25,286 bases of DNA from a virus (lineage: Duplodnaviria; Heunggongvirae; Uroviricota; Caudoviricetes): the IMG/VR virus record IMGVR_UViG_2529293142_000022. One strand, written 5' to 3'. The notes under the pieces were generated by a model that had not been told where the DNA came from, did no database searches, and was given only the letters and a program-made list of their open reading frames with translations. Made by a program: the position numbers and the translations under genes. How positions within the stretch are numbered: the first letter of the stretch is position 1; each line of letters starts with the position of its first letter. Shown here piece by piece: positions 10,097-16,191 of this stretch.

Positions 10097-11459
10097 AGAT
10101 TGTAGATGAGTTTATTCTCCTGAAAAAGCAGAAAAGCCAGCTTTTGAGCCTGTTTAGGATTCTGTGTAAATGCCTTTTCTCAGAAGTGACCGTCCAGGCG
10201 GTCACCGAACTCGATAATAAAGCGGCTCATTGCCATTCGCCAGTCCTTCAACGGCATCGTCCATTTCTGGGACGCAGACTGGATTGCCAGCCACACCACT
10301 TTTTTCACCGAGTCGTCTGTCGGGAACACTTTACGCTTTTGATCGCATGGCGGATCACGCTGTTTAGCGACTCGATGGCATTCGTCGTATAGATCACTTT
10401 GCGGATGTCCGTTGGATAAGCGAAGAACGTGGCAAGATTCGGCCAGTTAGCCTGCCAGCTTCTGCTTATCTGAGGATAGCGACTGTCCCACGCCGCAGCG
10501 AACGCTTCCAGTGCCTGCTGACCTGCCTCTTCCGTGGGAGCCTGATAAATCGCTTTCAGGTCGCGAGTGACGGCTTTGTAGTCCTTCCATGACACGAAGC
10601 GCAGGCTGTTGCGCACCATATGCACGATGCATAACTGGATGCGGGCCTTCGGATATACTGTGTTGATGGCATCCGGGAAGCCTTTCAGGCCATCCACACA
10701 GGCGATGAGGATATCGTTCAGACCGCGGTTTTTCAGTTCAGTCAGCACATTGAGCCAGAACTTCGCCCCTTCATTTTCGGCCAGCCACATACCCAGCAGT
10801 TCTTTCTGACCTTCGATATTGATGCCCAGTGCCAGGAACACCGATTTGTTGATGACGCGGCTGTCCTGCCGAACTTTCAGGACGATACAGTCAAGATAAA
10901 CAATGGGGTAAACAGCATCCAGTGGTCTGTTTTGCCATTCTACAACCTGCTCCATCACGGCATCGGTGACCTTTGATATCAGTGCCGGTGAAACATCTGC
11001 GTCATACAGTTCTTTGAACGCAGTAGCTATCTCACGGGTGGTCATCCCTTTGGCATACAACGAGAGGATCTGGTTATCCATCCCGGTAATACGGGTCTGA
11101 TTTTTCTTACCAGTTGTGGTTCGAAGGTACCGTCACGATCGCGCGGAGTACGCAGTTCCAGTGGGCCGTCGCCTGTGATAACGGTCTTTGTGGAATAACC
11201 GTTGCGGGAGTTAGCTCCTGGTCTGGACTGATTTTTCTCATACCCAAGATGGTGTGTCAGTCTCAGCATTGAGAGCGGCTTCAACGCTGAGCTTTTTCAG
11301 CAGCCGATCAAACTGACTGAGGTCTTCAGGGGTTTTGAGGTTTTTGGCCAGTTCGTTAGCCAGAGCCTGTAACTGTTTTTCGTCCATAAATTAACCTTCA
11401 TTTGATGCTGGATTGAACATATCAAAATCAGGCAATTACACAAATCTATGTACAGGCTC
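10097..11459 (-). mobile_element. IS256-family (Mutator-type) insertion sequence, decayed; boundaries approximate
   Basis: Transposase remnant spanning 10180..11387; weak terminal similarity (tgtacatagatttgtgtaattgcc versus tgtagatgagtttattctcc); no clear target duplication. Confidence 0.55.
10180..11387 (-). pseudogene. IS256-family transposase with at least three frameshifts
   Basis: Fragments MDEKQLQALANELAKNL.. (11238..11387), ..LTHHLGYEKNQ..NSRNGYSTKTV.. (11042..11284), MDNQILSLYAKGMTTREI... (10305..11081) and ..KVFPTDDSVKKVVWLAIQSASQKWTMPLKDW.. to the stop at 10180; two shifts are 1-bp deletions in A-runs. Confidence 0.75.
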
Positions 11460-11574
11460 TCTGGCCGGTTCGGATTCGTACCTCGCAGAGGTCTTTCCTC
11501 GTTACCAGTGCCGTCACTATGACGGTTAAACAGATGACGATCAGGGCGATTAACATCGCCTTTTGCTGCTTCAT
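11446..11574 (-). pseudogene. hokD: hokD (relF) toxin gene, 3' truncated: 38 native codons then RACT-stop
   Basis: MKQQKAMLIALIVICLTVIVTALVTRKDLCEVRIRTGQ matches Hok-family HokD as recalled, then diverges exactly where the IS256-like sequence begins (about 11459/11460). Confidence 0.65.
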
Positions 11575-11645
11575 AGCCTGCTTCTCCTGTCAACGCAAAG
11601 CAGAAGTGTCACCTTCGGTGCGAAACAGAGATGTCATGCTTTGGT

Positions 11646-11933
11646 TCAGAGAATGCGTTTGACCGCCTCGCTATATACTTCCGAGCGTTCTCTTTTCCCA
11701 ACAGAAATCACGAAAACGACAACTTTCTCGTCTATAACCTGGTATACAAGGCGATAGCCTGAAGACCGGAGCTTAATCTTGTAACAATCAGGCATACCAC
11801 GGAGCTTGTTTGCTTCAATCCGGGGTGACTCAAGTACTTCAACCAGCTTCTTTTTCAACTGTTCACGTACCGTCGAGCCCAGCTTTCGCCATTCCTTTAG
11901 TGCCCGCTCGTCAAAATCCAGAAAATACGCCAT
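11646..11933 (-). CDS. relE: RelE mRNA interferase toxin (95 aa)
   Basis: MAYFLDFDERALKEWRKLGSTVREQLKKKL...YRLVYQVIDEKVVVFVISVGKRERSEVY; 1-nt overlap with relB. Confidence 0.95.
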   Translation of the reverse strand: MAYFLDFDERALKEWRKLGSTVREQLKKKLVEVLESPRIEANKLRGMPDCYKIKLRSSGYRLVYQVIDEKVVVFVISVGKRERSEVYSEAVKRIL

Positions 11934-12172
11934 CAGAGTTCATCCAGCGTCACACGTACTGGCTTAGGATTACGAAGCCGTTCTTTCACTATCTCCACAA
12001 GTTCAGCATCTTCATCACTCAGGAGTGTCTGTTTGAACGGCAAGCGTTCATTGTCAGCGATATACTCGAGCATGAGACGAAGCGCTTCAGAAGGAGTTAC
12101 ACCCATTTTTTCAAGCGCGGCGTAAGAACGCGCTTTAAGTTCATCGTCAATACGCAGGTTAATGCTACCCAT
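11933..12172 (-). CDS. relB: RelB antitoxin (79 aa)
   Basis: MGSINLRIDDELKARSYA..LEKMGVTPSEALRLMLEYIADNERLPFKQ...; ATG at 12170-12172. Confidence 0.95.
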   Translation of the reverse strand: MGSINLRIDDELKARSYAALEKMGVTPSEALRLMLEYIADNERLPFKQTLLSDEDAELVEIVKERLRNPKPVRVTLDEL

Positions 12173-12183
12173 GTCTTACACCT

Positions 12184-12209
12184 CTTGTAATTACAAATGT
12201 CATTACAAG
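12184..12209 (-). promoter_or_regulatory. relBE operator/promoter (relO-like repeats)
   Basis: cttgtaattacaaatgtcattacaag: two overlapping TTGTAAT(T/G)ACA-type repeats 12-37 nt upstream of the relB start. Confidence 0.55.
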
Positions 12210-12502
12210 TATCGCACTACAACATGCTTAGGGCAAGTCACGAAGGAAGTCAGAAAGTAGTCGTAAGAACGGTGATCACTGTCCGCTTTGTGCCAGGAGC
12301 AGCCATTGCTAAGTCCATCCTGTATTGTGCAGGTCAGCTCGTTTTTAAAGAGTCCGGCCATCATCTTACTGGTACAGACACCATATACTTTGTGACGGTC
12401 AGGCTACATATGCACAACTCAACTTATTCATCTATTTTTTGCTTTAGCATGTCAGTATTGCTTTCTCGTCGGCGGGTGAGCGGTGACCTGACCTGTCGAT
12501 AA
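12197..12502 (+). CDS. YdfV-like hypothetical ORF (101 aa); doubtful coding status
   Basis: Track ORF in the K-12 ydfV position and of the same length, but it starts inside the relBE operator and has no recognisable domain. Confidence 0.25.
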   Translation: MSLQVSHYNMLRASHEGSQKVVVRTVITVRFVPGAAIAKSILYCAGQLVFKESGHHLTGTDTIYFVTVRLHMHNSTYSSIFCFSMSVLLSRRRVSGDLTCR

Positions 12503-12654
12503 AGGAACGTAACACGTTTTATGCAACACCCGCATGCGGCAGAAAATTATTGCCGAACGTTTACCCCTGTCAACAAGCTTTACTTTCTGAGGCGCGCCAG
12601 CCCGCGAGGAAAACAATCTGAACATCAAACAATTAATGACACAAGAAATACGAT

Positions 12655-12681
12655 TAAAGATTTTTTTGTGCATGCCGATAG
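12655..12681 (+). promoter_or_regulatory. Sigma-28 (FliA) class 3 flagellar promoter for flxA
   Basis: TAAAGATT-11 nt-GCCGATAG versus consensus TAAAGTTT-N11-GCCGATAA, 24 nt upstream of the flxA ATG. Confidence 0.6.
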
Positions 12682-12704
12682 TGCTTTTTTAAAAGGAGAA
12701 ATCT

Positions 12705-13037
12705 ATGTCTGTCACAATTCAGGGAAATACCTCAACCGTTATTTCAAACAACTCCGCCCCGGAAGGAACATCAGAAATAGCCAAAATCACAAGACAAATT
12801 CAGGTGCTGACTGAAAAGCTTGGGAAAATCTCATCGGAAGAGGGGATGACGACACAGCAGAAAAAAGAAATGGCTGCATTGGTACAGAAGCAAATTGAAA
12901 GCCTCTGGGCTCAACTGGAGCAGTTGTTAAGGCAGCAGGCAGAGAAAAAGAATGAAGACGCGACAGTTCAGCCTGATAAAAAAGAAGAGAAAAAAGACGA
13001 TACAAATACCGCTGGCACCATTGATATTTACGTCTAA
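12705..13037 (+). CDS. flxA: FlxA (FliA-regulated prophage protein), 110 aa
   Basis: MSVTIQGNTSTVISNNSAPEGTSEIAKITRQIQVLTEKLGK...; AAGGAG Shine-Dalgarno; sigma-28 promoter upstream. Confidence 0.9.
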   Translation: MSVTIQGNTSTVISNNSAPEGTSEIAKITRQIQVLTEKLGKISSEEGMTTQQKKEMAALVQKQIESLWAQLEQLLRQQAEKKNEDATVQPDKKEEKKDDTNTAGTIDIYV

Positions 13038-13051
13038 GTGACAGCCGTATT

Positions 13052-13074
13052 GTGGCCCTCATCGGGCCACTTTT
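13052..13074 (+). terminator. Rho-independent terminator after flxA
   Basis: Hairpin gtggccc-tcatc-gggccac followed by tttt, 15 nt after the flxA stop. Confidence 0.6.
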
Positions 13075-13439
13075 CGCCATCAGCCTTTTCTTTAAAGACA
13101 TATTATCTTTGTATCATTTCTGATAGTTAACATTACAAGATATAAGTAATGGACGCACTCCCAATTAGTCTATTTAAATCGCCACGAGTTTAACTGACAA
13201 CCCATGATCAATTATGAATTGCAACTATTTCTGTAGTCACTTTTGTGGGGACAGTCCACAAAACTGCCAACTTCCGCTTCTTGCTCTTAGCGGACATTAG
13301 CATAGGCTATTTACCATAACGCCTCATTACGCGCACCGCCCAGACTGACTCAGCGCGTTTCTGGCATATCCCCGGTAAAACAAGTAACAAACCACCCGAA
13401 AATGAACACCAGAAACGCGACTTAAGAATCTACCCTATG

Positions 13440-14830
13440 AATGGATATGCACTCAACCGAATCGATCTTGGTTTCAATCTTTTTTATCGGGATCAGGCTT
13501 CTTTTTAGGTAACTTCGGGGGCTTAACTTGCTGATGACTTTGCATTCGGCGCGTAAGCCAGGGATGGTCAGCTTTAGGTTTAACATAGTATTTTGAGCGT
13601 AAATCAATACGGGCATTATCCACTCGTTCATGGACACTCTTTTCATCATCCAGTGGTATAGGCTCCGGGCCATCAACATACTTTTCCCAGCCCAGCGCTT
13701 TCCCGTCATACAGAACGTTAATTTCACCGTCAAAGTTCTCGCATACAGTAACAACCGAATGCCTAAGTCGATATCCCCGGCCCTCACTGCGTACCTGAAA
13801 CGCACTGCTTTTGTACTGGAAAGTGAGATTTTTAGACAGAACGCGCTTCGCCTGTAGGCTGAAGATATAACCCAGTTCCTCTTCAGAATGGTGCACATCA
13901 AGATGAGCATTATCAGTAGTACGAGGCGACGTAGCGAACCGGTTGTTATAGGCTTCAATAAAGGTCGGCAACCATGCATTTGCTGTTTCAATATCACTGA
14001 TATTCTGAAGCCGCATTTCTTTGACCAGCCTGTCCTGTAGTGTCTGATTGGCGCGCTCTACCCGCCCTTTTGCCTGCGGGCTGTTGGCATGGATTGGCTC
14101 GATGCCCAGTGTCTTTATCGCACGAGTGAACTGGGTCAGCTCACCTTCCCGCTCTGGGTTATTTACCCTGAATATACTGTGTCTATCAGAGTAGAGAGCG
14201 AGCGGTACGCCATGATCATTAAGGTAACCCCGGAGGGTTTCCATGTAAGCCCGGGTTGTTTCAGCAGGCACAAAACGCAACGCCATCAACGCACTGGTGG
14301 CATCATCAATGAAAACGATCAGTGTACATCTGGGGCCTCGATTTTCAAACCAGTCATGAGGTGAGCCATCAATCTGGATCAGTTCACCGTAAGATGGTCG
14401 TCGCATGCGGCGTTGATATATACGGGCAATTTTACGACGGCGTTCACGCCATAACCCCTCTTCTATCATCCACTTTCTGAGAGTTTCAACGGATAAAGAT
14501 AAACCGTGTATCTCGCGCAATTTTTCGCACGCAAACGTAGGTCCAAAATCAGCGTAACGGCCTTTGAGGAGTGAAATTACTGTTGCTCTGAATTCAGTAG
14601 AAAAGGAATTATTAGGACGCTTTCCACGTCGGTGGGAAACCAGACCAGAAGGCCCTTCATTTCTATACCGTTGCACCAGACGTTTAACCTGCCGAATAGA
14701 AATGCCAATGCGTGCCGCAGCTTGTTCCTGAATAATCTGAAGTCGGTGGAGTTCCTTATGACTCATCGTAACAGTCTCTTTGATCATGAAAAATCCCCCA
14801 GAGAATTGTCTGGGGACATTTTAGAATGGT
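13440..14830 (-). mobile_element. IS element carrying an rve-type transposase (IS481/ISNCY-like); ends not determined
   Basis: Single long transposase ORF; I could not identify terminal inverted repeats or a target duplication, so the coordinates are only a bracket around the gene. Confidence 0.35.
13474..14787 (-). CDS. DDE transposase with N-terminal helix-turn-helix and rve integrase-core domain (437 aa)
   Basis: LIVFIDDATS, LALYSDRHSIF and SPQAKGRVERANQTLQDRL motifs (D, D, E); basic C-terminal tail. Confidence 0.85.
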   Translation of the reverse strand: MIKETVTMSHKELHRLQIIQEQAAARIGISIRQVKRLVQRYRNEGPSGLVSHRRGKRPNNSFSTEFRATVISLLKGRYADFGPTFACEKLREIHGLSLSVETLRKWMIEEGLWRERRRKIARIYQRRMRRPSYGELIQIDGSPHDWFENRGPRCTLIVFIDDATSALMALRFVPAETTRAYMETLRGYLNDHGVPLALYSDRHSIFRVNNPEREGELTQFTRAIKTLGIEPIHANSPQAKGRVERANQTLQDRLVKEMRLQNISDIETANAWLPTFIEAYNNRFATSPRTTDNAHLDVHHSEEELGYIFSLQAKRVLSKNLTFQYKSSAFQVRSEGRGYRLRHSVVTVCENFDGEINVLYDGKALGWEKYVDGPEPIPLDDEKSVHERVDNARIDLRSKYYVKPKADHPWLTRRMQSHQQVKPPKLPKKKPDPDKKD

Positions 14831-15121
14831 TCAAAGGGGACATTACAGCTTGGTGTTAACAATAGCCTGCTTCTCCGTGCCTTTCGGCACGTAAGAGGCT
14901 AACCTACATGTGTCTAGCATGAAATTGGCCTCAGATTAATGTTAAGCGTCTTGCAGGACGCGTAATGTTAACTGGGGCTTTTCTCTATCTGCCGTTGGTG
15001 TCCATGCCCGAGGCAGATAGCCTCAAGCACCCGCAGTCATTCTACTTAACTAAGATTTCCCCGCAAACCGTTTTTGTCCAGCACAGTAAATATCCAACTA
15101 AACCAATGGAGTTCGCTGTAT

Positions 15122-15301
15122 TTACCGCCAGTATTCAATGCACATGACCGCCATGAACACCCCTAAAAAAAGGGCATTTATATATCCAAATATTAATATC
15201 AAAACATCAACTTTTTCCATATACCTTGCTGTGAAGATGATGGGCATACATGATGCGAACAACCAGAACGCAACAAACAAAAACTGCAATGCGTTTTTCA
15301 T
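15122..15301 (-). CDS. Small membrane protein, 59 aa, two predicted transmembrane helices
   Basis: MKNALQFLFVAFWLFASCMPIIFTARYMEKVDVLILIFGYINALFLGVFMAVMCIEYWR; strong TAGGAGGAATA Shine-Dalgarno before the ATG at 15299-15301; the track ORF (15122..15340) starts earlier. Confidence 0.5.
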   Translation of the reverse strand: MKNALQFLFVAFWLFASCMPIIFTARYMEKVDVLILIFGYINALFLGVFMAVMCIEYWR

Positions 15302-15555
15302 TATTCCTCCTACAATCAATGTGCAATTACATTTAAACACACCTCAATTTGGCCGGACATATAAATATCTAAACCAGAAAAAATCACTTACATAGCGTTA
15401 CAAACTCTTTAGTCTAAAGGTTCATCGTAAAACATTCCCCATACTTATCAGTCCGTTCCGCGCCAGGTAGCTCATTGCCTTATCTGGCAACCTGTAATCA
15501 GGTTTCCGCTTTTTCAGTTGGCTGGTCGTTTAACCGACATAGTTAACCCATTAAT

Positions 15556-15843
15556 CTAGTTGCCGGATGTTGGTGGATTTTCGCGTTTTAGTTGTTCATA
15601 AAAGTGCACAGCTTTAACCAATTCTTCTGATGTAACCGGGACTGGTGAGGCAGTGAATAAGGCCTGAATTTGATAGTTCGGCCTGTCGTTACAATCCTCT
15701 TTTTTCGGTACATATTTCCAGTCACCAGACCACTACTTCCCCTGAAAGTCCGTAACGCCTTTTTTCACGTAGCGATATCGCCATGTCACTGGTTTTGCTT
15801 GCCCCGCCGTTTCATGCCCTTCCTGATAATTAATCTCGCTCAT
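15556..15843 (-). pseudogene. Nin-region-like ORF (95 codons) interrupted by an in-frame TAG at codon 37
   Basis: MSEINYQEGHETAGQAKPVTWRYRYVKKGVTDFQGK-TAG-WSGDWKYVPKKEDCNDRPNYQIQALFTASPVPVTSEELVKAVHFYEQLKRENPPTSGN; its ATG overlaps the stop of the upstream ORF (ATGA). Confidence 0.4.
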
Positions 15844-16031
15844 TCATCGCCCCACTCATCACAATATGCTTCGACCGGAGTTTTTCCCGCTTCATAGTCA
15901 TCACGCTAGGATTCGACATCAGCAGCACTTCCACCGCGTAACTCACCATAGTCCATTAATAGTTCATCCCGCTCTTCAAAACTGATGTTATATTTAGCTG
16001 AACAAAAATCAGCCACTTTGTTCTTCCTCAT
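15840..16031 (-). pseudogene. Small acidic ORF (64 codons) interrupted by an in-frame TAG at codon 42
   Basis: MRKNKVADFCSAKYNISFEERDELLMDYGELRGGSAADVES-TAG-RDDYEAGKTPVEAYCDEWGDE; TGA overlaps the ATG of the next ORF. Confidence 0.35.
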
Positions 16032-16080
16032 CGTCTTTTATTTCGTGGTATGAGTAATTGCAGTAGTTAAAGAAAATTTC

Positions 16081-16191
16081 TTATGCTCCGTCATGAATTT
16101 CATCAGGTGTTGCGTCATCGTCCACTTCGAATACATCCTCAAAATCTCCACCAGCTATTCCCGTTTCAATAATAATTTTGAACTTTCGCAT
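16081..16191 (-). CDS. Candidate small acidic protein (36 aa)
   Basis: MRKFKIIIETGIAGGDFEDVFEVDDDATPDEIHDGA; weak Shine-Dalgarno; a GC hairpin (ccgccc-tttc-gggcgg) lies just upstream. Confidence 0.25.
   Translation of the reverse strand: MRKFKIIIETGIAGGDFEDVFEVDDDATPDEIHDGA

What the first reader, a model, noticed from the sequence alone, without database searches (positions are those of the whole stretch)
15122..15301. Well-expressed-looking 59-aa two-helix membrane protein next to the transposase
This ORF has the strongest ribosome-binding site in the region (TAGGAGGAATA-ATG) and encodes two hydrophobic helices with a short basic/aromatic tail. It is the last gene of the small-ORF block before the rve transposase. 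Small two-helix membrane proteins in prophage accessory slots are often toxins, superinfection-exclusion or lysis-modulating factors.
Basis: partly seen in the sequence, partly recalled or inferred. Interest (0 to 1): 0.45.

Follow-up and report, generated by a model that had tools for sequence, protein, structure and literature searches.

The report
Unannotated 59-residue prophage membrane protein gene
The small open reading frame is very probably a real gene for a tiny membrane protein carried by E. coli prophages, in a family that reference annotation skips and nobody has studied, but its function is unknown and nothing about it is extraordinary.

Summary
On the minus strand, 15301..15122 encodes 59 aa behind AGGAGG-AATA-ATG, with two hydrophobic helices and an IEYWR tail.

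It is more than a chance ORF. A second E. coli lineage has a paralog of exactly 59 codons, ungapped, at 41% aa and 59% nt identity. Similarity stops at the ORF borders, only this frame is open in both, and pS 0.72 exceeds pN 0.34 (p=9e-5).

The family has no Pfam, NCBIfam, PHROG, PADLOC or PDB match. It was found only in Escherichia/Shigella. No RefSeq chromosome row listed for this DNA carried an annotation, and phage records call the opposite strand.

The ORF sits in a ~345-bp AT-rich module that is present or absent in the nin-like region of Qin-type lambdoid prophages, always 54-55 nt upstream of a hok/sok promoter. It is not directly next to the transposase. The severed hok leader lies between them, cut at its start codon by a 3.3-kb IS1202-family unit carrying relBE-ydfV-flxA.

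All members keep a lipobox-like S17-C18, so helix 1 may be a lipoprotein signal peptide.

Function is untested. Polymorphism within each lineage shows no purifying selection. This is a new member of a known kind, of modest interest.

The parts
15122..15301 (-). 59-codon CDS plus stop: a small membrane protein and founding member of an undescribed Escherichia/Shigella family
   Evidence: Translation. A paralog of identical length is 41% identical in aa. Homology is confined to the ORF, and only this frame is open in both lineages. pS 0.72 against pN 0.34, Fisher p=8.7e-5.
15306..15311 (-). Shine-Dalgarno AGGAGG, 4 nt (AATA) upstream of the ATG
   Evidence: Read directly from the sequence. One of 5 AGGAGG hexamers in the window. 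Unpaired in the predicted mRNA fold.
15233..15292 (-). Hydrophobic segment 1 (residues 4-23): either TM helix 1 or the h-region of a signal peptide
   Evidence: Hydropathy and AF2 helix 2-26.
15248..15259 (-). Codons 15-18, F-A-S-C: lipobox-like motif. S17-C18 is invariant in all 25 family sequences examined.
   Evidence: A PS00013-type pattern matches all 25 members. The paralog's V-I-S-C fits the strict lipobox. Chance given the composition is about 6-7%.
15140..15205 (-). Hydrophobic segment 2 (residues 33-54), with a conserved small-residue face G39-x3-A43-x3-G47 and N42
15125..15139 (-). Conserved C-terminal tail I-E-(Y/C)-W-R
   Evidence: Alignment A2.
15076..15421 (-). AT-rich module of ~345 bp (GC 36% against 46-49% in the flanks) that carries the ORF plus ~120 nt of upstream non-coding DNA. 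It is present or absent between the same flanking genes.
   Evidence: 13 related prophage contigs lack it. They carry instead a 27-codon ORF that overlaps the upstream gene's stop. Composition. The boundaries are approximate.
15138..15395 (+). Antisense 85-codon ORF that deposited phage annotations call a gene ('hornerin' or hypothetical protein). Judged spurious.
   Evidence: Annotated in ON470612 and PV340562. This frame has 2 stops in the paralog and pN/pS 0.91.
15039..15066 (-). Inferred hok promoter (TTGCGG-16 nt-TAGAAT), starting 56 nt downstream of the ORF's stop codon
   Evidence: Sits 7 nt upstream of the first base of the Rfam hok-leader match. Conserved in 120 viral contigs. The promoter function is inferred, not shown.
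14862..15032 (-). Context: hok mRNA leader with the mok start (ATG at 14920) and the sok region, severed at the hok start codon
   Evidence: Rfam RF01794, 104 bits, E=6e-23. 92% identical to hokW/mokW/sokW of phage 933W. Intact loci continue with ATGAAGCAG....
11588..14861 (-). Context: a 3274-bp IS1202-family (ISEsa1-like) transposable unit carrying relE, relB, ydfV and flxA. It separates the ORF and hok leader from the hokD coding region.
   Evidence: 19/26 terminal inverted repeats with TGT...ACA ends. A perfect 15-bp direct repeat ATAGCCTGCTTCTCC at 11573-11587 and 14862-14876. Intact hok loci serve as the empty site. Family features from PMC10132070.

Best explanation
The ORF is a genuine protein-coding gene for a 59-residue protein of the cytoplasmic membrane. 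It is accessory cargo on a ~345-bp AT-rich, moron-like module in the nin-like (replication-to-Q) region of Qin-type lambdoid prophages, immediately upstream of a hok/sok locus.

Shown:
- The reading frame was conserved as a protein across a deep split into two E. coli lineages.
- It has a strong SD and two hydrophobic helices.
- Conserved residues line one face of each helix: W13, S17, C18, P20, I21/I22 and T24 on the first, and L36, G39, A43 and G47 plus N42 on the second.
- The C-terminus is a conserved IE-x-WR.

Inferred:
- It inserts N-in/C-in, with a short periplasmic loop. The paralog has MRK at the N-terminus, an acidic loop and a WR tail.
- It has no promoter of its own, so it is transcribed by read-through of the phage early-right operon. 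That means mainly after derepression, not in the quiescent lysogen.
- It acts through tight helix-helix packing in the membrane, either self-association or binding a host or phage membrane protein, rather than catalytically.

My best guess for its role is a non-essential phage factor that modifies the inner membrane during lytic development. Lysis timing or membrane energetics, or exclusion of competing phage DNA entry, are the candidates. The specific role is not established by any evidence here.
For: Real gene:
- A full-library phmmer search found a 59-aa protein that aligns without gaps from M1 to R59 at 41% identity (E=1.2e-8; tblastn E=3e-11).
- Nucleotide identity is 59% inside the ORF and about 25% (random) outside it.
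- Of six frames, only this one is open in both lineages. pS 0.72 against pN 0.34, p=8.7e-5, omega about 0.19.
- T is periodic at codon position 2.
- The ORF is intact in 102/102 hok-anchored viral contigs.
- It is intact in all but one of the metagenome copies that lie clear of a contig end.

Carried by phages: deposited phage records vB_EcoS-640R1, vB_EcoS-813R8 and PhiR42_1 contain it.

Accessory module:
- It is present or absent between the same flanks.
- Its GC is 36% against 46-49% in the flanks.
- It is found in 1553 of 5426 complete E. coli genomes.

Membrane hairpin: hydropathy and AF2. Conserved faces come from alignment A2.

Read-through transcription:
- No sigma-70-like promoter was found.
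- The ORF has the same orientation as the upstream early genes.
- No terminator lies before hok.
Against: - Within each lineage there is no sign of purifying selection. About 12 of 13 segregating sites are nonsynonymous, which rejects omega=0.2 at p~5e-4. Present copies, mostly in decaying prophages, may therefore be drifting.
- No expression data exist. K-12 lacks the gene, so published K-12 small-protein screens are uninformative.
- NCBI's PGAP pipeline skips it: the 80 RefSeq chromosome rows listed show no annotation under the match. One RefSeq plasmid record does show a 'hypothetical protein' there.
- The family is confined to Escherichia/Shigella, with only two sublineages. That is narrow for a broadly useful phage function.
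- The module is dispensable: it is absent from 13/116 relatives and from K-12, and IS1 disrupts the ORF in at least 8 genomes.
- The functional assignment rests on analogy only.
Confidence: 0.5

Rival explanations
1. Same gene, different biochemistry: it is a prolipoprotein. Residues 1-17 would be an SPase II signal peptide (n-region MK/MRK, hydrophobic h-region, lipobox F/V-A/V/I-S-C). Lgt and LspA would process it to a 42-residue N-acyl-diacylglyceryl peptide, C18 to R59. This peptide would be held in the inner membrane by its single C-terminal TM helix, with the IEYWR tail in the cytoplasm. It would then resemble small phage or plasmid lipoproteins (Rz1, colicin lysis proteins, entericidins, Cor/Llp) more than a helical hairpin.
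For: - S17-C18 is invariant in all 25 sequences of both sublineages.
- All 25 match the PROSITE PS00013-type lipoprotein pattern, with Cys at position 18 and K/R in the first 3 residues. The paralog's V-I-S-C fits the strict lipobox.
- The A16V polymorphism stays within the residues allowed at position -2.
- Only 6-7% of composition-preserving shuffles of segment 1 give such a motif.
Against: - The residues after the Cys (MPIIF or VPIIL) are hydrophobic. They extend segment 1 to a full 20-residue TM length, which is unusual for lipoprotein tethers.
- F at position -3 is uncommon.
- AF2 models one continuous helix, 2-26.
- Pfam's lipoprotein-attachment models gave no hit at E<=1.
- No dedicated predictor (LipoP, SignalP 6) was available.
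- A 6-7% chance rate is not negligible, and the two lineages are not independent observations.
Confidence: 0.3
2. It is a membrane-damaging toxin, either a type I-toxin-like or a holin/pinholin-like pore former, whose strong SD is normally kept silent. Expression would depolarise or permeabilise the inner membrane, possibly cooperating with the neighbouring Hok in killing or in phage release.
For: - It is small and very hydrophobic (GRAVY 1.27) with a glycine-zipper-like G39xxxA43xxxG47.
- Sublineage 1 sits 54-55 nt upstream of a hok promoter in 79 of 79 informative loci.
- hokW-sokW in prophage Sp5 is reported to aid phage release (PMC8621323, abstract seen).
- The top Foldseek BFVD neighbours include small phage membrane proteins and holins, but none is significant.
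Against: - No match to Hok/Gef or any holin model.
- No antisense RNA family hit, and no structured or SD-occluding leader: the fold z-score is +0.63 and the SD is unpaired.
- There is no charged C-terminal tail and no dual start. The gene is not in the lysis cassette, which this prophage has elsewhere (essD-ydfR-rrrQ-rzpQ).
- The paralog has no hok/sok within about 1 kb, so coupling to Hok is not a family trait.
- An unregulated strong-SD toxin would be hard to maintain in about 29% of E. coli genomes.
Confidence: 0.15
3. It is not, or is no longer, a functional gene. The ORF would be a fossil or a chance frame that stays open only because all copies are very recent.
For: - All sublineage-1 copies are at least 95% identical in DNA.
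- Within-lineage polymorphism is almost entirely nonsynonymous.
- The paralog lies among gene remnants (a truncated integrase and truncated sit genes), and the window's own prophage is riddled with IS elements and pseudogenes.
- PGAP does not call it on the listed chromosomes.
Against: - Two lineages have diverged to saturation at synonymous sites yet keep 59 codons, no indels, the same start and stop, and pN well below pS in this frame only.
- Similarity ends at the ORF borders.
- Segregating-site density is lower in the ORF (3.3 per 100 nt) than in the flanking non-coding parts of the module (8.9 and 5.4).
- The replacements are conservative. Three of them (A16V, I37M, Y40H) move toward the paralog's residue.

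This rival can hold only in the weak form 'real family, currently under relaxed selection'.
Confidence: 0.15
4. The real gene is the 83-85-codon ORF on the opposite (+) strand, 15138/15144-15395, as annotated in the deposited phage genomes ('hornerin' or hypothetical protein).
For: Automated annotations of ON470612, ON470619 and PV340562 call it. It is the longest ORF across the interval.
Against: That frame has 2 stop codons in the paralog and pN/pS 0.91. No antisense ORF of 40 aa or more spans the paralog.
Confidence: 0.02

Closest known systems
Hok/Gef family type I toxins (the adjacent hok/sok locus; Pfam Hok/Gef family)
   Same: Both are small, hydrophobic, prophage-borne proteins that target the inner membrane. 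In sublineage 1 this ORF is physically adjacent to a hok locus, 54-55 nt from the hok promoter, in every informative locus examined.
   Different: There is no sequence similarity (Pfam scan empty at E<=1). This protein has two hydrophobic segments, whereas Hok has one TM plus a periplasmic Cys-containing domain. No mok-like leader ORF, sok-like antisense RNA or fold-back mRNA structure belongs to this ORF. The paralog is not next to any hok.
Class II holins / pinholins such as S21 of phage 21 (from my own knowledge)
   Same: About 60-70 residues, two TM domains, N-in/C-in topology, phage-encoded, with small-residue helix-packing motifs.
   Different: No holin model matches in Pfam or PHROGs. 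The C-terminal tail is 5 residues rather than a long, highly charged tail. There is no dual-start motif. The gene lies in the nin-like early region, not beside an endolysin, and the prophage already has a holin (essD).
Small phage, plasmid and chromosomal lipoproteins: Rz1 o-spanin, T1 gp11 u-spanin, colicin lysis proteins, entericidins, and the Cor/Llp exclusion lipoproteins (from my own knowledge)
   Same: A short precursor with a basic n-region, a hydrophobic h-region and a lipobox-like [F/V][A/V/I]SC at residues 15-18. Like a u-spanin, it would combine a lipoprotein signal with a C-terminal TM helix. Cor and Llp show that prophage lipoproteins can act in exclusion.
   Different: No sequence similarity to any of them. 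Only about 14 residues separate the Cys from the TM helix, far too short to span the periplasm as a spanin does. The mature part is almost entirely hydrophobic rather than a soluble or amphipathic domain. Processing is unproven.
Morons of lambdoid phages and small inner-membrane exclusion proteins such as HK97 gp15 and T4 Imm (from my own knowledge)
   Same: A discrete insertion between conserved neighbours, with base composition unlike the flanks, dispensable, and encoding a small membrane protein.
   Different: Classical morons carry their own promoter and terminator and are expressed in the lysogen. Neither signal was detectable here. There is no sequence or significant fold similarity to known exclusion proteins.

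Membership tests
Hok/Gef type I toxin | Sequence match to the family model | tested here: not met
   The Pfam scan at E<=1 returned 0 families for the 59-aa protein. NCBIfam and PHROGs were also empty.
Hok/Gef type I toxin | A single N-terminal TM helix followed by a periplasmic domain | tested here: not met
   There are two hydrophobic segments, 4-23 and 33-54, and a 5-residue tail.
Hok/Gef type I toxin | mok leader ORF, sok antisense RNA and a structured mRNA leader belonging to the toxin ORF | tested here: not met
   The RF01794 match (14861-15032) lies downstream of the ORF and belongs to the neighbouring hok. The ORF's own 5' region has no significant structure, z=+0.63.
Type I toxin (generic) | A cis- or trans-encoded antisense RNA antitoxin | tested here: inconclusive
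   No Rfam family hit over the ORF at E<=1, and no promoter-like site on either strand. An undescribed sRNA cannot be excluded without RNA-seq.
Type I toxin (generic) | Toxicity on expression | not testable with these tools
   Needs inducible expression.
Class II holin / pinholin | Two TM domains with N-in/C-in topology | tested here: inconclusive
   Two helices are predicted. Topology is inferred only from charge distribution, which is clear in the paralog (MRK / acidic loop / WR) but ambiguous in the window protein.
Class II holin / pinholin | A charged cytoplasmic C-terminal tail and a position in the lysis cassette next to an endolysin | tested here: not met
   The tail is IEYWR. The ORF lies between early-region genes and hok. 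The lysis genes essD-ydfR-rrrQ-rzpQ lie about 12 kb away.
Class II holin / pinholin | Match to a holin family model | tested here: not met
   No Pfam or PHROG hit. Foldseek BFVD holin neighbours have E>=3.
Bacterial lipoprotein (Lgt/LspA substrate) | Signal peptide with a basic n-region, an uncharged h-region and a lipobox ending in Cys at positions 15-35 | tested here: met
   The PS00013-type pattern matches all 25 family members at C18. The strict lipobox is met by the paralog sublineage only.
Bacterial lipoprotein (Lgt/LspA substrate) | Actual lipidation and SPase II cleavage | not testable with these tools
   Needs globomycin treatment, lipid labelling and a C18A mutant.
Phage moron | A discrete insertion between genes that are adjacent in related phages, with deviant base composition | tested here: met
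   13 related contigs join the upstream gene to the hok promoter with only about 74 nt between them, against about 420 nt in the window. Module GC is 36% against 46-49% in the flanks.
Phage moron | Own promoter and terminator, giving expression from the repressed prophage | tested here: not met
   No promoter-like site in 14700-15900, and no terminator between the ORF and hok. The consensus scans are crude, so this is a weak negative.
Superinfection-exclusion membrane proteins | Blocks infection by a defined set of phages | not testable with these tools
   No PADLOC model matches. The class has no unifying sequence signature.

The most novel reading that the evidence does not exclude
The 59-residue protein founds an undescribed class of phage-borne micro-proteins, possibly lipidated. 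In this reading it works together with the adjacent Hok toxin, for example by gating or enhancing Hok-mediated permeabilisation to time phage release. Alternatively it is a new inner-membrane superinfection-exclusion factor. The excess of amino-acid-changing polymorphism within lineages, including position 31 varying in both sublineages, would then reflect an arms race rather than decay.
Probability: 0.1. Interest if true: 0.6.

Novelty: new member of a known kind. Interest (0 to 1): 0.3.

Why it matters
This DNA is in about 29% of complete E. coli genomes, and the paralog is in another ~19%. No RefSeq chromosome row listed for either stretch carries an annotation. Deposited phage records annotate the wrong strand instead. 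It is a concrete case of the small-membrane-protein blind spot in annotation.

E. coli K-12 lost the gene in a deletion, so K-12 small-protein screens could not have found it.

If the protein turns out to affect membrane integrity, lysis timing or phage entry, it would bear on prophage induction and phage-host range in commensal and pathogenic E. coli. If it is lipidated, it would be an unusually small lipoprotein with a TM anchor.

As it stands, it is a well-supported gene call with unknown function, not a surprise.

Tried and rejected
Homology and fold searches that found nothing:
- Pfam, NCBIfam, PHROGs and PADLOC scans gave no hit.
- A PDB profile search gave none at E<=10.
- Foldseek against BFVD returned only non-significant generic hairpins, best E=0.9. 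The afdb50 library was unavailable.

Searches for more relatives:
- A word-indexed profile search of 5.8 billion proteins and a full phmmer search of 1.84 billion representatives found only the two E. coli/Shigella sublineages, plus truncated or fused calls.
- The genome-contig scan found only Shigella and one spurious Asticcacaulis hit.
- tblastn against the phage and plasmid collections added nothing new.
- A degenerate motif scan of the metagenome collection (C-x-P-I-I-x-T ... F-G-x-x-N-A) returned 103 stretches. All were the two known sublineages except 2 chance hits, so there is no third sublineage.

Regulatory signals:
- The promoter/terminator scan found 0 promoter-like sites.
- RNA folds of the 5' region and of the ORF-hok spacer were not different from shuffles.

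Literature:
- Full-text searches for the peptide strings found 0 papers.
- Searches on small prophage membrane proteins found nothing relevant.

Ideas considered and rejected:
- The antisense 85-codon ORF as the gene (stops in the paralog).
- The ORF as part of the hok regulatory region. The hok promoter and leader lie downstream of it. Phage 933W's hokW locus matches only the leader and promoter stretch, window 14862-15078, which ends 44 nt short of the ORF's stop codon.
- A u-spanin (linker too short).

Within-lineage dN/dS was attempted as a test of coding. It gave no purifying-selection signal and is reported as a caveat.

It was rerun with 9 accepted sequences.
Full report
WHERE THE WINDOW COMES FROM

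The window is an E. coli Qin-type lambdoid prophage. It carries cspI/B/F, essD, ydfT (a Q-like antiterminator), relBE, flxA, dicA/dicC, DicF, dicB, int and rspAB. It is 99-100% identical to many E. coli chromosomes, for example ATCC 8739 and strain EC14.

Compared with EC14 it has picked up two more IS elements. One is an IS66-family element at 6178-8681. The other is an IS256-family element with a frameshifted transposase at 10146-11459.

THE OBSERVATION

The ORF is on the minus strand, 15301..15122. It encodes 59 aa: MKNALQFLFVAFWLFASCMPIIFTARYMEKVDVLILIFGYINALFLGVFMAVMCIEYWR.

AGGAGG sits 4 nt upstream of the ATG. There are only five AGGAGG hexamers on both strands of the 25-kb window. Only two of them precede an ATG by 3-9 nt, and the other opens 11 codons.

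Hydropathy shows two hydrophobic segments, at about residues 4-23 and 33-54. AlphaFold2, run on a 9-sequence family alignment, gives helices 2-26 and 28-58 with mean pLDDT 74.

T makes up 53% of second codon positions but only 24% of third positions. So the hydrophobic character is a codon-periodic signal, not a by-product of T-rich DNA.

IS IT A GENE?

All family libraries were silent: Pfam, NCBIfam, PHROGs and PADLOC. None of the 80 RefSeq chromosome rows listed for this DNA shows an annotated feature. One RefSeq plasmid record does show a 'hypothetical protein' under the match. Three deposited phage genomes annotate the opposite-strand 83-codon ORF instead, labelled 'hornerin' or hypothetical. 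GenBank submitters call the minus-strand ORF 'hypothetical' or 'putative membrane protein', as 59 or 72 aa.

The decisive result came from the exhaustive phmmer search. It found a 59-aa protein, P0039/P0044, that aligns from M1 to R59 without a gap at 41% identity. It is encoded at a different E. coli locus, between ttcA plus an integrase remnant and remnants of sit genes, uspF and ompN. This is the Rac attachment region, beside a cdt prophage in one contig. It is present in 1045 of 5426 complete genomes. The 25 listed rows again show no annotation.

Between the two lineages:
- Nucleotide identity is 59% inside the ORF and at the random level, about 25%, in both flanks.
- Synonymous sites are saturated (pS 0.72) while pN is 0.34, giving omega about 0.19 and Fisher p=8.7e-5.
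- Of the six frames, only this one is open in both lineages.
- The antisense frame that phage annotators chose has two stops in the paralog and pN/pS 0.91.

I take this as strong evidence that the 59-codon frame has been maintained as a protein.

CAVEAT ON RECENT EVOLUTION

Within each lineage the picture differs. In samples anchored on flanking DNA or on a residue motif, not on ORF integrity, sublineage 1 has about 8 nonsynonymous and 1 synonymous segregating site. Sublineage 2 has 4 and 0. That fits omega near 1 and rejects omega=0.2 at p~5e-4.

The replacements are conservative: A16V, V31I, I37M, Y40H and L44I. Three of them move toward the paralog's residue. Site density in the ORF (3.3 per 100 nt) is below that of the adjoining non-coding DNA (8.9 and 5.4).

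Relaxed selection in decaying prophages, the known time-lag of dN/dS among very close genomes, or diversifying selection would each explain this. I cannot separate them.

The ORF is intact in 102 of 102 hok-anchored viral contigs. It is intact in all but one of the metagenome copies that lie clear of a contig end. IS1 interrupts it at 15200-15208 in at least 8 complete genomes.

GENOMIC ANATOMY

In relatives that lack the IS, the gene order on the minus strand is: replication genes - DUF977 - ... - DUF7167 - two small hypotheticals - [this ORF, unannotated] - hok/sok - (rem) - hypothetical - DUF968/ydfU - rusA - Q. So the ORF lies in the nin-like early-right region, in the same orientation as that operon.

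It is part of a ~345-bp module, window ~15421-15076, with GC 36% against 46-49% around it. Thirteen of 116 contigs that share the hok promoter lack this module. In those, a 27-codon hydrophobic ORF (MTWPEAFTTTGIAMAAALVVYSICSWG) overlaps the upstream gene's stop in an ATGA arrangement.

In 79 of 79 informative ORF-anchored loci, the hok promoter lies 54-55 nt downstream of the stop codon. The paralog has no hok/sok nearby.

No sigma-70-like promoter, no terminator and no significant RNA structure accompanies the ORF, and the SD is unpaired in the predicted fold. Transcription is therefore most simply by read-through from the early operon. This step is inferred.

K-12 lacks the gene. A deletion there joins the transposase C-terminal fragment 'ydfW' to ydfX/dicC.

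WHAT LIES BETWEEN THE ORF AND THE TRANSPOSASE

Rfam finds RF01794 (sok, in practice the hok mRNA leader) at 14861-15032 on the minus strand, at 104 bits. It is 92% identical to hokW/mokW/sokW of phage 933W.

The match stops at 14862, exactly at the AT of the hok ATG...GGAGAAGCAGGCTAT|TGTTAACACC.

The 15-mer ATAGCCTGCTTCTCC recurs at 11573-11587, directly upstream of the hokD coding sequence.

The 3274 bp in between start and end with 19/26 inverted repeats with TGT...ACA termini. The best match to the right-end repeat anywhere in 11500-13700 is the one that abuts the direct repeat. By eye, each end also carries a second, inner copy of the repeat core.

The unit encodes an IS1202-family (ISEsa1-like) transposase and also flxA, ydfV, relB and relE. 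The terminal features agree with those published for the IS1202 family (PMC10132070). Intact hok loci provide the empty site.

That relBE integrated into an ancestral hokD of about 70 codons has been reported (PMC6379469, citing Ramisetty and Santhosh 2016). The complete TIR and 15-bp duplication structure of the vehicle, preserved in this window, is what I add. I did not check whether that has been published.

In this window hokD is also truncated after codon 38 by the IS256-family element.

FEATURES OF THE PROTEIN AND LIKELY MODE OF ACTION

Invariant or nearly invariant positions across 25 sequences are L5, L8, W13, S17, C18, P20, I21, I22, T24, Y27, L36, F38, G39, N42, A43, L44, G47, V48, F49, I55, E56, W58 and R59.

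They follow an i, i+3/i+4 spacing on each helix. TM2 has a small-residue face, G39-A43-G47, next to N42. That points to specific helix-helix packing rather than bulk hydrophobicity.

Charge distribution favours N-in/C-in. It is clear in the paralog (MRK / acidic loop / WR) and ambiguous in the window protein.

They have a basic n-region, an uncharged h-region and [F/V][A/V/I]-S-C18. The paralog fits the strict lipobox. Only 6-7% of composition-preserving shuffles of segment 1 do so. Helix 1 may therefore be an SPase II signal peptide, which would leave a 42-residue lipidated peptide with one TM anchor. Against this, the residues after C18 are hydrophobic and AF2 models one continuous helix. 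I put it at about 0.3.

The biological role cannot be read from sequence. My best guess is a dispensable phage accessory factor that acts in the inner membrane during lytic growth, in lysis timing or membrane energetics, or in exclusion of competitors. This rests on context and analogy only.

COMPARISON WITH KNOWN FAMILIES

It is not a Hok/Gef protein. There is no model match, the architecture is different, and it has no mok/sok of its own.

It is not a recognisable holin. There is no model match, no charged tail, and it lies outside the lysis cassette.

It is not a spanin. The linker between the Cys and the TM helix is too short.

It resembles a moron in being a compositionally deviant indel, but no autonomous promoter or terminator is detectable.

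It may be a very small lipoprotein.

The family itself is undescribed. It seems confined to Escherichia/Shigella and has just two sublineages.

VERDICT

The functional interpretation is untested.

It is a new member of a familiar kind, a small prophage-encoded membrane protein. It has practical value as an annotation correction. Scientific interest is modest (0.3) unless experiments reveal a phenotype.

Noticed in passing
window 14862-15032 (-), promoter ~15039-15066: A hok/sok locus remnant: the hok mRNA leader, the mok start (ATG at 14920) and the sok region (Rfam RF01794, 104 bits; 92% identical to hokW/sokW of phage 933W). It is cut exactly at the hok start codon by the IS end.
   Followed up: yes
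window 11588-14861, with direct repeats at 11573-11587 and 14862-14876: relE, relB, ydfV, flxA and the IS1202-family (ISEsa1-like) transposase form one 3274-bp unit. It has 19/26 terminal inverted repeats (TGT...ACA) and a perfect 15-bp target duplication of the hok SD/start (ATAGCCTGCTTCTCC). Intact hok loci act as the empty site. The classic relBE-relF(hokD) operon therefore looks like a transposon-type insertion that cut hokD off from its own promoter, mok and sok. Integration of relBE into hokD is already in the literature (PMC6379469). I did not check whether the TIR/TSD structure of the vehicle has been published.
   Followed up: partly
L119, L096, L167 and 10 further viral contigs (position equivalent to window ~15421-15076): Prophages that lack the 59-aa module carry a 27-codon hydrophobic ORF in the same slot: MTWPEAFTTTGIAMAAALVVYSICSWG. 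Its ATG overlaps the stop of the upstream gene (ATGA). This looks like a second, alternative membrane mini-protein just upstream of hok. It has no PADLOC hit and was not examined further.
   Followed up: partly
L212-L219, L208 and L221 (gene at 6001-6180 in L212): The 59-aa paralog (MRKILMYLCISIWIVISCVPIILTSEYLTEASIMALMFGHANALCIGVFISIIYIECWR) sits in a fossil island at the ttcA/Rac attachment region, between a truncated integrase and truncated sit (ABC-3) genes, next to uspF-ompN. One contig has a cdtABC prophage beside it. It is in 1045 of 5426 complete E. coli genomes, and the 25 listed RefSeq rows show no annotation there.
   Followed up: partly
window 15138-15395 (+): Deposited phage genomes (ON470612, ON470619, PV340562) annotate the antisense ORF here as 'hornerin' or hypothetical protein. 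This appears to be a wrong-strand gene call.
   Followed up: yes
window 10146-11459 and 11460-11574: An IS256-family element with a frameshifted transposase replaces rem and the 3' part of hokD. In this window hokD is truncated after codon 38 (…RIRTGQ|RACT*), unlike in K-12, ATCC 8739 and EC14.
   Followed up: partly
window 6178-8681: An IS66-family element (486-aa transposase at 6339-7799, minus strand) is inserted at the ydfU-ydfT (Q-like antiterminator) junction, relative to strain EC14. The 8-bp overlap of the flanking alignments suggests a target duplication.
   Followed up: partly
window 15200-15208: In at least 8 complete E. coli genomes (for example MB57 and ETEC4089) an IS1 with a 9-bp duplication is inserted inside the 59-aa ORF. 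Protein-database entries ending in ...GDAANLLI are read-throughs into the IS1 end.
   Followed up: yes
window 13659 to about 18400, compared with K-12 (L223): K-12 Qin has a deletion that joins the C-terminal fragment of the IS1202-family transposase (annotated 'ydfW') to ydfX/dicC. The deletion removes the hok leader, the 59-aa ORF, the methyltransferase and the replication genes. YdfW therefore appears to be a transposase fragment.
   Followed up: partly
window 15422-15843 (-) and ~16009-16191 (-): The two genes upstream of the ORF (a hypothetical protein and a DUF7167 protein) are pseudogenes in this prophage, with frameshifts and internal stops per PGAP in identical genomes. They are intact in relatives L005 and L006.
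   Followed up: no
window 1378-1763 and 4272-4664 (-); 20481-20532 (+): Rfam finds two cspA-type thermoregulator leaders (cspI and cspB) and the DicF sRNA, as expected for Qin.
   Followed up: no
window 15489-15513 (+): A terminator-like hairpin followed by a T-run on the + strand, antisense to the early operon and about 190 nt upstream of the ORF. About 1.2 such sites are expected by chance in the scanned region. Its significance is unknown.
   Followed up: no
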